Shown here: positions 3,040 through 62,129 of the stretch, in pieces
How positions within the stretch are numbered: position 1 is the stretch's first letter
Layout of the letters: every line of letters begins with the position of its first letter
Translations under genes and position numbers: made by a program
The notes under the pieces: generated by a model
Database searches by the model: none
What the model was told of the DNA's origin: nothing
Seen by the model: the letters and a program-made list of their open reading frames with translations, nothing else
NCBI GenBank assembly: GCA_964016885.1
Contig: OZ024740.1
Span: 127,596,001-127,660,000 of the forward strand
Length of the DNA stretch: 64,000 bases
Reading direction: 5' to 3'
From: Eledone cirrhosa
Taxonomy: Eukaryota

Positions 3040-5150
3040 ATATTGTGATGTTGCTATTCCATTCATGTTTTCTATTTAATTTTGGTTGGAGTTCATTTAT
3101 GTTTACTGCCCCTGTGATTTGTCTAAACATTGCGTCTTTTCTGTCTGTAGATTGTATTTTTATATCTATGTTCTCTAATTTGCCCTTACGTTCTATTTTA
3201 GCATGTTGGTGGAGCATTGATGATTCTTTTTTATCTTGAAGCTCTCGCCAGTTTTCATTTAACCGTTCTCCTATTCTACGAGCTGTCTCACCTATTTACA
3301 CTATATTCTTATATTTACATTGTCCTTCAGTACATCTTATGCTATATACTACATTTCTAGTTTTACAGTTAATATGAGGGCTTAGTTTACAGATTATGCA
3401 TTTCTTATCTATACAGGGAGGTCTTTGAAAAGGGTATGTATTACTAATAAGTGTTTTTATGGAGGTACCTGCTCTTTCTATCTTAATATTAAGTTTAAGT
3501 TTATCTAGGGCCCTTCTAAATGTGTAAGCTAATTCACCTCTAATGGTTGTATTGATGAACATTACACTCTGGTATTTATTGCTATCATACCATGAGTTTA
3601 TTCTATTAACCTTATTCCTAGTTATTTCTATTCTATTCCAAAATTTGCTCCTATACAAGGAGCAGGTCCCATTTGTATCATTATATGCAATTTTTTCCCA
3701 TTTGGTTATACTCTGATTTATCTCTCTGATTGTAACCACAGAACTGCATACGGTGGATGAAGTGTTGTATATGTCTCTGTAGTTCTTTGGGGTTGCACAT
3801 TCGGGACACGTTTCTCATCACCCGTACCAAATCTGCAATCAGTATGTTGATTTTAGTGTGATCCGAAAGAGCTGAGTTTCGGTGGATCAGATATTTGGAA
3901 GTCATGGGAATGGAGGATTTGTTTTTTGTTATTAATGGTTTCTAACCAGAGCTCTGTGTCTAGTACAGGTAATCGATAGTTTGGGTGTTTGCTTGGGTAG
4001 TCTATGGTAACTATAATACTGTGGTGGATGAAGTTAGCTATTTGCTGGATGCTTTTCATGGTGATTTTTCTCTAATTCCTGATTGTTCTCTAGTGGGGCG
4101 TTTTTACTACGATGTTTATATCATCAACGTAGTGGGAGTACATTATCAGGGTTAAGAGGTTGCTATCTTCTAATTGTTCTTTAAGTTTAAGTTTAAGTTT
4201 ATTGTCCCACCATACCATGAATAGGTTAGCTATGTCACCTGCAAAGCTAACACCAATGGCTGCTCCGTCCTCTTGGGCATATGTTTTTCCATTAAATTTG
4301 AACATATGTTCCTTAAGGGTTAGTTTTATACTGTCCGCCACCGCATGTGCAATCATTTTCTTTAGTTCATCGTGGTTTTCGGGGGACCGTATCGCTCTGG
4401 TCCACCCGTTCCATCTTTCTGTGTGGGTTTTCTTGGCCATTGAGGTAATGCTAGGTGGTCTGCCTCTTCTTGGTCTTGTAGGTTGTAGGGCACTGGCTGC
4501 TAAGGTCATACGTATCTAGATAATTATTACTATAGGTAAGTTTAATTAGGAGTCCTAGCTCACTGGTATCAATCGCACAGAATTCAACATTGCACTCACT
4601 GATCATTTCTACGCATTTCTTCACAGCAAAATCTACGTCAATGGAAGGAAATAGGAACACAATATCCATACTACCTATTATACAGTCTGTTTGGTCCCTA
4701 GATCGGTTATTTTCGCTGATTTTGCTGAGGAGGTCCCCCGTGCTGTCACATATATCTGGGGACATTTTAATGATGGGGCGTATGATCAGGGAGAGGAATT
4801 AGGAAAGTCTGTAGTTACTATCAATGTTAGCTCCACAGACTGGCCATGTTGGTGGTCCTGTGATAGGGTCACTCTTCGTCTCATGGTATTTTCGAAGCCC
4901 ATACAACGCTGGCACGTCATTGTTCCAGGCCTGGAAGTTGTTGGCAGTCCTTTTATCGGGATGCATTATGCTTGTCCACATCATCATATGGGCATTGAGG
5001 ATTTTCTCCCTATCCCATGCTCTCGTGGTATTACTTCTCTTGTATTATTGATGTGGGTATGCATTGCCTGGATGTTGTTTGACAGACTGTCAACCGACAT
5101 TCTGCCAGACTTTTCTGTTCGAAAGCATGCAATCTCTCCATTACGCAAGC
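3040..5150 (-). pseudogene. PLE reverse transcriptase/GIY-YIG endonuclease, multiply disrupted
   Basis: ORF-track fragments 4799-4987, 4451-4765, 4090-4509, 3853-4059, 3681-3905 and 3296-3739 are colinear in different frames; TAA at the Tyr of YIG. Confidence 0.9.
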
Positions 5151-5181
5151 CATTTGCAGATTTTTCTCCCAGATTTGTCTC

Positions 5182-5340
5182 CCGTTTCGACGGCTATTTC
5201 TGGACAGAAATAGCCGTCGAAACGGCTTGAGCTCTGCTGTCGGGGTTAAACATGTTCCTATTACCCACTCTACTACCCTAAGTATTGAGTACTCTGGTGC
5301 GTTATGGTCCATCAGGTTCCTTACCACAGCTAATTCTTTA
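5182..5340 (+). mobile_element. pLTR-like terminal fragment with a 21-bp hairpin (related stubs at 8022-8187 and 28122-28180)
   Basis: ccgtttcgacggctatttctg/cagaaatagccgtcgaaacgg hairpin; shared ctaagtattgagtactctggt...ggttcctta terminus running into (TA)n. Confidence 0.6.
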
Positions 5341-6310
5341 TATAAATATACATATATATATATAGTAATATTAATCAATTTGAAGACTAAAATCCAAATA
5401 GGGCTCGATAAGGATAAATATATATCAAATATATAAGAACCGTACAGCAAATATTATATATATATATATATATATTAGGAAGGGATGAACTACGAAGACA
5501 CACTGTGTCTCGGTGCATCTACCATTTCACGAAGTCACCGAGACCCAAGGATGGCTTACTTAACACGCTACCATTGAAATATTTCCTTTGAATTATCGCA
5601 ACAAATTGAGCCACAAGCAATAGTGTTATAGTAATAATCACTATTCAAACGAAGAAAAAACAACCCCATATTTAGTTCAATAAAACACAGAGACATTTAT
5701 ATATGTTTATGTTATACTATAAGTCGTGAATATTTGTGCTTAGATATCCGTACGTATGTAGAACATAAAACAAAGCAATCAACATTAAACTCGAATATTG
5801 TTTTTTTAAATATCCCTGCAAAATAAAGAAATTATCATGTTAGTCGTCTAATTAGTTAAAATATGTAACAGAGTATCTTTTTCAATTAAACTTGAAAAGA
5901 TAATAATTTGGAATAATGAGACAACGGCATAACATTTAAAAAGTATTAACTTTTATGATGATTTTATTACAAGTAAGACGTATGATTGGAATAATCTAGG
6001 TAAGCTCCGATTAAATATTTAGCAGTATCTGCTTCCGGATTTTTTACGAGCATATTACAAATCCCAGCGAGGTTGGATCTGATTTTTCTTCCTCGAAGTT
6101 TTTGATAAAACAAGAATTAGTTATGCACTGAGATAGATATCATTGGCGATTCGCCTTTCGAATATAAGAACTAGTGCATCCATTTAGTGCTAACATGACT
6201 CCAGAGCTTTTAGAGTGTATACCATTAGACCAAAATAAAAACTTCAGATTTATAACAGAAATTTCAACCAAACTCCATAGACATATGGGTTCCATTTCCT
6301 TCCCTCTACG

Positions 6311-10387: not shown

Positions 10388-10558
10388 ATCAAGGTTTAGC
10401 AAATAAAAAAAAGTTTCAAAATAAATTTCAAAAAATTAACTTTACTTATTATAGTTACCTTTACCGAATCGTTTTCGAGTCTCAAAAATAAACAGAGTCC
10501 ATACGGCAACCGTTACAAAGAAAAAGTCTCGTCAGAAGGAACTTTTCATTCGAAGAAT
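10388..10558 (-). mobile_element. Diverged copy of the 59002-59567 family with degenerate HHR (10457-10539)
   Basis: Reverse complement aligns to 59395-59565; cctt-CTGACGA...ctc-GAAA-acgattcgg-TA-aagg. Confidence 0.8.
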
Positions 10559-10567
10559 ATTTATATA

Positions 10568-38729: not shown

Positions 38730-41812
<3,083 letters not shown>

Positions 41813-58818: not shown

Positions 58819-58899
<81 letters not shown>

Positions 58900-59001
58900 A
58901 CATATATATATATATATATGTATACATATATATATATATACATATATATTTATATATATATATATATACATATATATTTATATATATATATATATATATA
59001 T

Positions 59002-59563
59002 ATCGGTAAAGGTAACTATAGTAGGTAAAGTCAATTTTTTAAAATTTATTTTGAAACTTTTTCATTATTTACTAAACCTTGTTTATATTTGTTCTGGCTC
59101 GTTAATTTATTAACCCGCCATTGAACCACACTGGCATTTGGTTGGACAATACATGCGTACCTTGGCGCCTTGTGCGTGAAGGAACGTATTTCCTATTACT
59201 ACTACCTCCACTAACGTTGAGAACAAATTTGGTCGTTCCGACTGCTGCTAGCAATAGCTGTGGCTAGTTTGACCTACCTCCTTTTGCCTCTATCTTTGCT
59301 ACGGCCCTTGATAAACCTGTTCTACATCATCCACTCTCATCCCAGGAACAGTTTTTGATAGCGCTAGTTTGTGATTTAAATTCAGGAATTTTATATTCTT
59401 TGAATGAAAAGAACCTTCTGACGAGAATCTTTCTTTGCAACGAAGGCCGTGTGGTCTCCGTTTTATTTTGGGGATTCGAAACCGATCGGTAAAGGTAACT
59501 ATAGTAGGTAAAGTCAATTTTTTTAAATTTATTTCGAAACTTTTTCATTATTTACTAAACCTT

Positions 59564-59567
<4 letters not shown>
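59002..59567 (+). mobile_element. 483-nt non-coding HHR monomer with ~82-nt terminal direct repeat
   Basis: 59002-59085 repeated at 59485-59567; embedded in (TA)n on both sides. Confidence 0.88.
59413..59496 (+). ncRNA. Intact type I hammerhead ribozyme
   Basis: acctt-CTGACGA-gaatct...ggattc-GAAA-ccgatcgg-TA-aaggt; all three helices pair; GUA site. Confidence 0.9.
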
Positions 59568-59637
<70 letters not shown>

Positions 59638-59672
59638 ATTTATATATATATATATTTATATATATATATATT

Positions 59673-59705
<33 letters not shown>

Positions 59706-59779
59706 ATTTATATATATAATATATATATATTTATATATATATATATACATTTATATATATATATATTTATATATATATA

Positions 59780-59841
<62 letters not shown>

Positions 59842-59895
59842 AATATATATATTTATATAAATATATATATATATTTATATATAAATATATATATA

Positions 59896-59951
<56 letters not shown>

Positions 59952-60001
59952 AATATATATATTTATATAAATATATATATATATTTATATAAATATATAT
60001 T

Positions 60002-60072
<71 letters not shown>

Positions 60073-60097
60073 ATATACATTTATATATATATATATT

Positions 60098-60134
<37 letters not shown>

Positions 60135-60137
60135 ATT

Positions 60138-60170
<33 letters not shown>

Positions 60171-60335
60171 ATATTTATATAAATATATATATTTATATAA
60201 ATATATATATATATTTATATATAGATATATATATTTATATAAATATATATATATATTTATATATAGATATATATATTTATATAAATATATATATTTATAT
60301 AATTATATATATATATATATACATATTTATATATA
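59566..60335. repeat. Long interrupted (TA)n tract
   Basis: Directly visible. Confidence 0.95.
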
Positions 60336-60476: not shown

Positions 60477-61965
60477 ATTAGGTTTATAGTATTTAAAAGT
60501 TCTTCTCAGTTTATGATTACATGATATAATTAATTCCTGTCATTTATTTAATAGGATATCCTTAGATTTCTTTATTTCAAAAAGTTCCTGGGAACATAAT
60601 CTACATTCATATCTATTATTTTGATAAGGGGTGGCCCTTTTGAGCACACTCCAGGTCAGGTCATAATCTATATTCCTCTTTCTATAATTATTAATTATTT
60701 CAGCTAAAGATGTTGTATTAGCTAATGCGGCATTTTTAAAACTGTGTTTGTGGGTATTAAATCTTACTTTAAATTGGTTAGAAGTAGTTCCTATATATGA
60801 ATAAATTGAGTCCTTAGTGTTATCTTTACATTTATATACTATGTTATTAATAAGGCAATTTCCTTTTAATGGGCAATTTGTTTTGTTTCTACAGTTACAA
60901 CAACTTTCGTGAATGCTGTATCAGAGGAGATAGTCCAATTAGGTGTGGAATTTTCACGACTTGTTGTATGTGAATGAGATGGTGGTTTGCTGTGGTTTAT
61001 TTTAGTATTATGGTTAGTTTGATGTATTGGCGGTATATTCATGTTTTTTTTTTACATTTATATACATTATAGGCACTTATATTTTGTTGTATGTTTTTGG
61101 TTGTTGAGTAGGAGAATTTAACCGTTGATCTATTTAAAATTTCATGGTATTTGTGGTTTGACGGGAAGATTTTCTCATGGATAGTAAACATTTTTTTAGG
61201 TATATTATCTTTAATTTGTAGATTAAATGGAGCATTATACCAAGTAACTCGTCTATTACGGTTTCGATGTTGTTTATTATTTTTATAGGATGTATCCTGA
61301 TGTTTATTAAGAGAATTATTGTTAATGATTTTATTACACATATTTTTAGTTAGATTCATTGATTTAGGTGTTTTAGCCTGTTTATTCGGAATGTTATTAT
61401 TAACATATATTGGAGTATTAGGATGAATAGTTTTTGGAAAGTTACTATATTGTATATTAGAAGAGTTAGATAAATTAAGTTTTATGTTGGTATTTTGGGG
61501 TATAGTGTGAGTGGCATTTAGGTGTGTATATTTCATTTGGTGTTTGTTGGTAATATTGGGTTGTATGTTTGTAGGGTTATTGGTACAAGGTATATATACT
61601 AATTTGTTTTTGTGGCCACTTCTAGCTAAAGCTTCGTTATAAAAGGTCGCGTTTTTATCAAATACATCCTGGTTAGACGATAGGTTAGAAATTGTGAGTG
61701 AGATATTATATGCTAGGTTTTTAAGGATAGATTTAGGGTGATTAGATTGTGAGTGTATGTAATGTAAGTTTTGGTTAGGTTTACGGTAAGGTTGGTACAT
61801 ACCCGTAGATAAGTCTAATGTTATATCAAGGAAATTAACTACTTTACTTGTGTTTCCAAATGTAATATCTAGACTATAATAGTCTTTGAGGAAAGTTCTA
61901 ATAAGTTTTTTATTTTTTTCAATTTCTGAGAGGCTAAGGTTATTGGAAAGAAGAAGACAGTCTAC
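60477..61965 (-). pseudogene. Penelope-like element 3 ORF: RT C-terminus, thumb and GIY-YIG (same subtype as PLE2)
   Basis: VNFLDITLDL..YRKPN..YIHSQSNHP, WYNAPF, VKFSYS; after frameshift CNC..CPLKGNC..IVY..YIGTT..FKVRFNTH..CRLC..LLNK*QE..CNH. Confidence 0.92.
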
Positions 61966-62129
61966 TAACACCCACTAACAGTATACTAACACCCACTAAC
62001 ACCTCTTCACCAAACTACACACACACCAGTACACCACACTCCTTCCATAGAACCACACACACCCTTCTCCCCCCGCTCCACCCACACCCCCGCTCCACAC
62101 TCACTCATCACACTAACACCCCTACTAAT

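What the first reader, a model, noticed from the sequence alone, without database searches (positions are those of the whole stretch)
59002..59567. 483-nt monomer starting almost at its own hammerhead cleavage site
Seen: the element begins ATCGGTA/AAGGT, about 7 nt upstream of the predicted GUA cleavage site and inside the ACCGATCGGT palindrome. It runs 483 nt through a fully paired HHR and then repeats its first ~82 nt. Inference: this slightly longer-than-unit, terminally redundant copy fits reverse transcription around a circular or re-ligated RNA template, inserted into (TA)n. An older family member is at 10388-10558.
Basis: partly seen in the sequence, partly recalled or inferred. Interest (0 to 1): 0.75.

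Follow-up and report, generated by a model that had tools for sequence, protein, structure and literature searches.

The report
Retrozyme copy, truncated near ribozyme cut
This is one of several hundred genomic copies of a 483-base non-coding repeat with a predicted self-cutting RNA motif (a known class, retrozymes); it was likely pasted into TA repeats by a Penelope-type jumping-gene enzyme, and its start near the predicted cut site lies in a modest stopping hot zone rather than at a fixed end.

Summary
In detail: a 483-nt unit with a type I hammerhead (predicted cut after 59491), an 82-87-nt terminal repeat, (TA)n flanks and a sister-subfamily copy at 10388-10560. It is one copy of a young non-coding family (594 exact internal matches) and files as an animal non-LTR retrozyme. 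The start near the cut site is not a family rule. 5' ends are scattered; they are enriched 2.6-fold within 10 nt of the cut (28 vs 10.8), but 85-90% of passes read through, and single-armed copies like this one show no significant excess. The fixed ends are the 3' ones, unit positions 87 and ~195. Of 87 two-armed inverted insertions, 81 pair 87 with 195, one pairs 87/87, none 195/195, and arms share haplotype (45 of 52). That suggests Penelope-type two-site priming from both DNA ends. A circular template fits homogeneous arrays of up to 9 units but is unproven: some arrays grew locally, and uncleaved multimers also fit. No autonomous partner was found. The one-sided tail and two start sites are in print, and this scan noted the same footprint on other DNA.

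The parts
59002..59571 (+). Whole insertion: one 483-nt unit plus 87 nt (unit coordinate q1 = 59002); single-armed, 3' end at q87
59002..59013 (+). 5' end: substrate half of the upstream hammerhead only; predicted cut after 59008; first 2 nt shared with (TA)n
59009..59080 (+). Predicted long hairpin (q8-q79) just 5' of the q87 start site; region 91-94% conserved in the sister subfamily
59153..59204 (+). Predicted hairpin q152-q188 and the family's second reverse-transcription start zone (q195-q203, 59196-59204), not used as an end in this copy
59413..59496 (+). Type I hammerhead motif: stem I, core 59418-59424, extended stem II 59425-59477, GAAA, palindromic stem III 59481-59490, predicted cut after 59491
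59485..59571 (+). Terminal repeat q1-q87 (2 mismatches); 3' end is the family's fixed start site q87 with TATAT microhomology to the target
58825..59001 (.). (TA)n target microsatellite, left flank
59572..60335 (.). (TA)n-rich target microsatellite, right flank
10388..10560 (-). Short copy (q392 to ~q87) of the ~82% sister subfamily, also in (TA)n

Best explanation
This is one 5'-truncated copy of a young, non-coding, hammerhead-bearing tandem retroposon (an animal non-LTR retrozyme), likely written into a (TA)n repeat by a Penelope-like RT/endonuclease that started at unit position 87, read backwards through the predicted cut site, copied one full unit and stopped 5-7 nt past the next cut site. 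Shown: unit, motif, ends, family architecture, shared haplotype of arms and copies. Inferred: (1) the enzyme is a Penelope-like element (PLE) protein acting in trans; (2) q87 and q195 are internal priming sites, each just 3' of a hairpin and at a short TA match to the target; (3) in most insertions both cut DNA ends are primed, one at each site, on RNA of one source, giving two head-to-head arms, and this copy kept only the q87 arm; (4) the template is mostly continuous across the cut site, most likely a re-ligated monomer circle (about 55%), otherwise uncleaved multimer; (5) a minority of templates are cut monomers, which would give the stop excess at the cut site.
For: 594 exact matches of an internal 21-mer, 233 exact q87-(TA)n and 138 q195-(TA)n junctions; controls 0. 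Of 133 non-redundant pattern-anchored insertions, 87 are two-armed: 81 pair q87/q195, 1 q87/q87, 0 q195/q195, 5 other. This holds from either anchor (54 of 56; 47 of 51). The sister subfamily shows it in 11 of 11 inverted copies, by eye, and a coding PLE family of the same genome has short + tailed ends in 3 of 3 inverted pairs. Divergence is 2.62% between insertions, 0.43% within an arm, 0.76% between arms. 45 of 52 arm pairs agree at all informative sites, against a null mean of 9.1. Arrays of up to 9 near-identical units occur in many lineages, with lineage variants in every copy. Six q195 arms stop at q6-8 vs 0.66 expected. In L107 the haplotype switches between q431 and q135 and the foreign unit ends exactly at q8. 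The circular monomer folds at z -2.4, 0 of 60 shuffles as stable. Literature: tandem cDNA from circles by PLE RT is hypothesised (PMC7229834); two internal start sites and extension of both strands are shown in vitro (PMC11167929).
Against: No autonomous partner: no similarity to the unit's ends in three coding PLE families (90 search loci plus 17 fetched) or in 30 variant-stem loci. Some arrays grew or homogenised after insertion (L015: four private variants in 2 adjacent copies only; L157, L010, L004), so array homogeneity does not prove rolling-circle copying. The arms overlap on the template (38 of 81 both cross the cut), which needs strand displacement or two RNAs; shared haplotype shows one source, not one molecule. 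In vitro, uncleaved RNA was the dominant PLE substrate and priming used no homology. The q6-8 window was chosen after seeing the data, and q150-152 is as strong a stop site (7 vs 1.0). Cleavage and expression were not tested.
Confidence: 0.7

Rival explanations
1. Same enzyme and start sites, but the templates are linear, mostly uncleaved multimeric transcripts of genomic arrays; circles play no part and arrays are kept long by local duplication.
For: Local duplication or homogenisation in L015, L157, L010, L004. Hammerhead cleavage was dispensable and unprocessed RNA dominant for the anole PLE in vitro. 8 of 9 Xenopus retrozyme dimers did not cleave in vitro.
Against: Many lineages (13 haplotypes with 2 or more insertions) each give homogeneous arrays; 11 discordant of 2004 adjacent-copy comparisons. 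Survival per lap is steady for q87 arms (109, 42, 14, 5). Both fit a monomer bottleneck better than many long master arrays.
Confidence: 0.3
2. Templates are cut linear monomers, and the RT jumps from the 5' end of one monomer to the 3' end of the same or another.
For: L107 switch and stop at q8; stop excess at the cut on both first and second laps (10/109, 6/42, 9/62, 4/18).
Against: Jumps to other RNAs should mix haplotypes at the junction; only 1 of 75 multi-copy arms shows a clear switch. No junction indels pile up at q7/q8 in the per-copy variant lists.
Confidence: 0.12
3. One reading: the element is designed to begin at its cleavage site, as a unit-plus-82-nt product of one lap round a circle.
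For: 2.6-fold stop excess within 10 nt of the cut.
Against: The 30 other single q87 arms range from 50 to 1647 nt with no peak at 566-570; single-arm excess is not significant; the 82-87 nt is set by the fixed q87 start.
Confidence: 0.07
4. Chance truncation of the pLTR of a coding PLE, or a satellite spread by DNA-level recombination.
For: Architecture matches coding PLE insertions.
Against: No ORF joined to any of 149 insertions; period is always 483; fixed 3' ends, variable 5' ends and (TA)n flanks (115 of 131 on both sides) mark retrotransposition.
Confidence: 0.05

Closest known systems
Metazoan non-LTR retrozymes (Cervera & de la Pena 2020, PMC7229834, parts 2-4 of 6 read; Li, Clavereau & Pollet 2026, 10.64898/2026.07.22.740005, parts 1-3 of 5 read)
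   Same: Non-coding tandem unit, one type I hammerhead per unit, GC 39%, monomers to multimers, PLEs abundant in the genome.
   Different: Unit slightly above the 150-450 bp of the 2020 paper (within the 51-972 bp of the 2026 one); long stem II extension; most insertions two-armed; expression, circles and cleavage untested here; no partner pLTR found. The parts read do not map insertion ends.
Endonuclease-bearing PLE insertions with inverted 5'-truncated copy and one-sided 30-40-bp tail (Craig et al. 2021, PMC8557442, 12 passages seen)
   Same: Partial tandems, adjacent inverted copy, tail at one end only, (TA)n preference; non-autonomous multicopy head-to-tail elements (MRC1).
   Different: No coding sequence; tail is ~108 nt; the paper ascribes the tail to endonuclease-mediated resolution, whereas the data here fit two priming sites.
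Anole Poseidon PLE in vitro (Frangieh et al. 2024, PMC11167929, parts 1-2 of 4 read)
   Same: Two internal RT start sites downstream of the hammerhead that bound the tail; both target strands cut and extended; predicted dimer.
   Different: There the sites are adjacent, without target homology and without strand preference; here 108 nt apart, at TA microhomologies, and almost always one per end.
L1 twin priming (recalled, not read)
   Same: Both target ends prime, giving head-to-head arms.
   Different: Second site here is fixed, and the arms overlap on the template.

Membership tests
Animal non-LTR retrozyme | Type I hammerhead motif in each unit | tested here: met
   motif and pairing only, no Rfam match at gathering
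Animal non-LTR retrozyme | [quoted passage not shown] | tested here: met
   Family arrays of up to 9 units; the window copy itself has one complete motif
Animal non-LTR retrozyme | No protein coding, no LTR, GC below 50% | tested here: met
   GC 0.39; no ORF of 120 aa in the unit; period 483 throughout; PBS/PPT not searched
Animal non-LTR retrozyme | Self-cleavage | not testable with these tools
   Indirect only: stops at q6-8 and L107
Animal non-LTR retrozyme | Expressed as circular and linear monomer RNA | not testable with these tools
   No RNA holder listed
Animal non-LTR retrozyme | Target-site duplication, when present | tested here: inconclusive
   Flanks are (TA)n, so a duplication cannot be read
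Animal non-LTR retrozyme | Homology to the pLTR of a coding PLE | tested here: inconclusive
   None in three families sampled; the genome holds many more
PLE-type insertion | 5' truncation, partial tandems, inverted copy, one-sided tail, microsatellite target | tested here: met
Autonomous PLE | RT and GIY-YIG ORF in the element | tested here: not met
   No ORF joined to any of 149 insertions

The most novel reading that the evidence does not exclude
A Penelope-type RT dimer grips one circular retrozyme RNA at two fixed sites and copies it round and round from both ends of the cut target at once; the insertion ends also record in vivo hammerhead cleavage (sharp stops at q6-8, one jump onto a cut monomer of another lineage). 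This would be a genomic record of rolling-circle twin priming that explains the PLE inverted repeat and one-sided tail.
Probability: 0.35. Interest if true: 0.75.

Novelty: new member of a known kind. Interest (0 to 1): 0.42.

Why it matters
How PLEs make their tandem, inverted and tailed insertions, and whether retrozymes travel as circles copied by PLE enzymes, are stated as open or hypothetical in the papers read. This family gives two exact start sites, an 81:1:0 pairing rule and haplotype-tagged arms, which define a small RNA substrate for an in vitro test. The single window copy carries little of this information; the family does.

Tried and rejected
Rfam at gathering: 0 matches. The repeat finder was swamped by (TA)n. 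Partner hunt: three coding PLE families from the window (compared in 50, 66), the sister query, a variant-stem-III pattern (61 matches, 30 read, all family members) and non-TA 5' flanks of 14 single arms gave nothing. The PLE fragment at 60540-61974 is an unrelated neighbour. Eleven inverted pairs of that family were uninformative because their ends lay outside the fetched stretches. A 'collision' signature (q195 arms stopping at q87, q87 arms at q195) was not seen: q195 arms 16 vs 11.6 at q78-117; q87 arms show an excess at q158-177 (11 vs 3.4), inside a hairpin. A parent-to-daughter test on rare alleles was inconclusive (9 all / 9 part among kin). Literature on twin priming in PLEs: one search gave 2 listings, not read, neither about PLE mechanism by title; searches added none. 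This covers only the open library, and supplements (Fig. S9 of PMC7229834, S1-S2 of PMC11167929, the preprint's tables) were not seen and may bear on it.

Full report
Observation. The element spans 59002-59571 between (TA)n tracts. The period is 483 nt and the terminal repeat 87 nt with 2 mismatches; 2 nt at the 5' end and 5 nt at the 3' end are shared with the microsatellite. Below, q1 = 59002 and the predicted cut lies between q7 and q8. The type I hammerhead has a 5-bp stem I, core CTGACGA, an extended stem II, GAAA and a palindromic stem III; the catalytic fold is 2.1 kcal/mol above the MFE. Rfam misses it and the region is not unusually stable. In 25 copies (18 distinct) from two subfamilies 93% of cells pair, with one both-sides change in stem II that amounts to a single event between subfamilies.

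Family. The genome (3.0 Gb) gave 1965 candidates, 40 scored, and 594 exact matches of an internal 21-mer of the young subfamily. To avoid bias on 5' ends I sampled by 3' junction: 91 of 233 q87-(TA)n junctions and 65 of 138 q195-(TA)n junctions, taken in listing order. Three q87 loci (L063, L086, L092) fell under a 92% identity filter. With the 30 loci this gave 149 insertions; 133 are pattern-anchored, 132 without the window. None joins a coding sequence.

5' ends. Arm lengths run from ~25 to 4270 nt. A survival analysis of 215 arms gave 28 stops within 10 nt of the cut against 10.8 expected (P 9e-6), the strongest of 24 bins. The excess is broad for q87 arms and sharp for q195 arms (6 at q6-8 vs 0.66, window chosen after seeing the data; q150-152 is as strong). 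Most passes read through: 10 of 109 and 6 of 42 q87 arms, and 9 of 62 and 4 of 18 q195 arms, stop on laps one and two. For single-armed copies the excess is not significant (4 vs 2.3), nor for the window's own zone (7 vs 4.2). So this copy's start is an ordinary truncation in a mild hot zone.

3' ends. They are fixed at q87 and q195 (also 197, 200, 203, each at a TA), just 3' of predicted hairpins; q2-197 is ~91% conserved in the sister subfamily against ~80% elsewhere. Of 133 insertions 87 are two head-to-head arms: 81 pair q87 with q195, one q87 with q85, none q195 with q195, five other or cut off. Independent choice of site at each end cannot give this from both anchors (54 of 56; 47 of 51). 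Second arms under ~25 nt are missed, so some 'single' copies are two-armed. The sister subfamily shows the same in 11 of 11 inverted copies among 27 distinct insertions. A coding PLE family with the CX2-5CxxC motif that Craig et al. give for Neptune/Nematis has two 3' ends ~50 nt apart and one of each in 3 of 3 inverted pairs.

Template. Divergence is 2.62% between insertions, 0.43% between copies in an arm and 0.76% between arms. At 27 informative sites 45 of 52 arm pairs agree fully (null mean 9.1, maximum 17), and adjacent copies disagree at 11 of 2004 comparisons. L036 has 8 full units differing by at most 1 site; L077 and L163 by none. L107 is the exception: its q195 arm changes lineage between q431 and q135 and the foreign unit ends at q8, as expected of a jump onto a cut monomer; it is one case. 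Against a pure rolling-circle reading, L015, L157, L010 and L004 carry private or rare variants in only some copies, which points to later local duplication. Arms often overlap on the template (38 of 81 both cross the cut), so one molecule is inferred from the asymmetry, not shown.

Mechanism. Most likely a PLE protein acting in trans cuts (TA)n, primes at q87 and usually also at q195 from the other end, and reads a template continuous across the cut site; the two cDNAs are then joined head to head, or one is joined to the target, as here. I put a circular monomer at about 55%, uncleaved multimer at 30% and jumping among cut monomers at 12%. The enzyme, cleavage and circularity are inferred. 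No partner was found and no RNA run was listed.

Known context. The class, its circles in coral, mussel and axolotl, and the hypothesis of tandem cDNA made by PLE RT are in PMC7229834. A PLE origin is argued in the 2026 preprint. The inverted copy and one-sided tail are described in PMC8557442, and two internal start sites with both strands extended in PMC11167929. I found no paper joining these into two-site twin priming (searches; open library only). Earlier notes of this scan report the same footprint in other genomes and elsewhere in this one; I looked them up after reaching this reading, and they are not independent support. No look-alike of this sequence was noted.

Verdict. A real, new member of a known class. 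The headline feature of the finding is weak; the family-level footprint is the useful part. Interest 0.42.

Noticed in passing
window 60540-61974 (-): Broken PLE fragment (RT thumb to GIY-YIG) of a young, abundant family with open frames up to ~800 aa elsewhere; 3' UTR has a C-run and an internal (TA)n; many copies form long inverted pairs.
   Followed up: partly
window 3296-5453 (-): Broken PLE with a CX4CxxC motif; its family carries a minimal hammerhead-like motif, two 3' ends ~50 nt apart, and a TAG at the same place in nearly all 150 matches, not examined.
   Followed up: partly
window 39943-40365 (+): GIY-YIG fragment of a third PLE family; no similarity to the unit.
   Followed up: partly
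L107 (G000:C3:159225564-159226792): Two-lineage insertion: a foreign monomer ending exactly at the predicted cut.
   Followed up: yes
L298, L317, L324: A third, more distant subfamily (~77-80% to the unit) with the same two ends.
   Followed up: partly
L009, L011, L095, L074, L061, L002: Six single arms of different haplotypes stop at q338-343 (709-716 nt); possible pause or transcription start, not significant in the binned test.
   Followed up: no
L244, L254: A separate short hammerhead-like motif with a palindromic stem III near other PLE loci; part of the same sequence flanks L037, so it may be another abundant family.
   Followed up: no
L219, L306: Young and sister subfamily copies inserted side by side in the same (TA)n tracts.
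   Followed up: no
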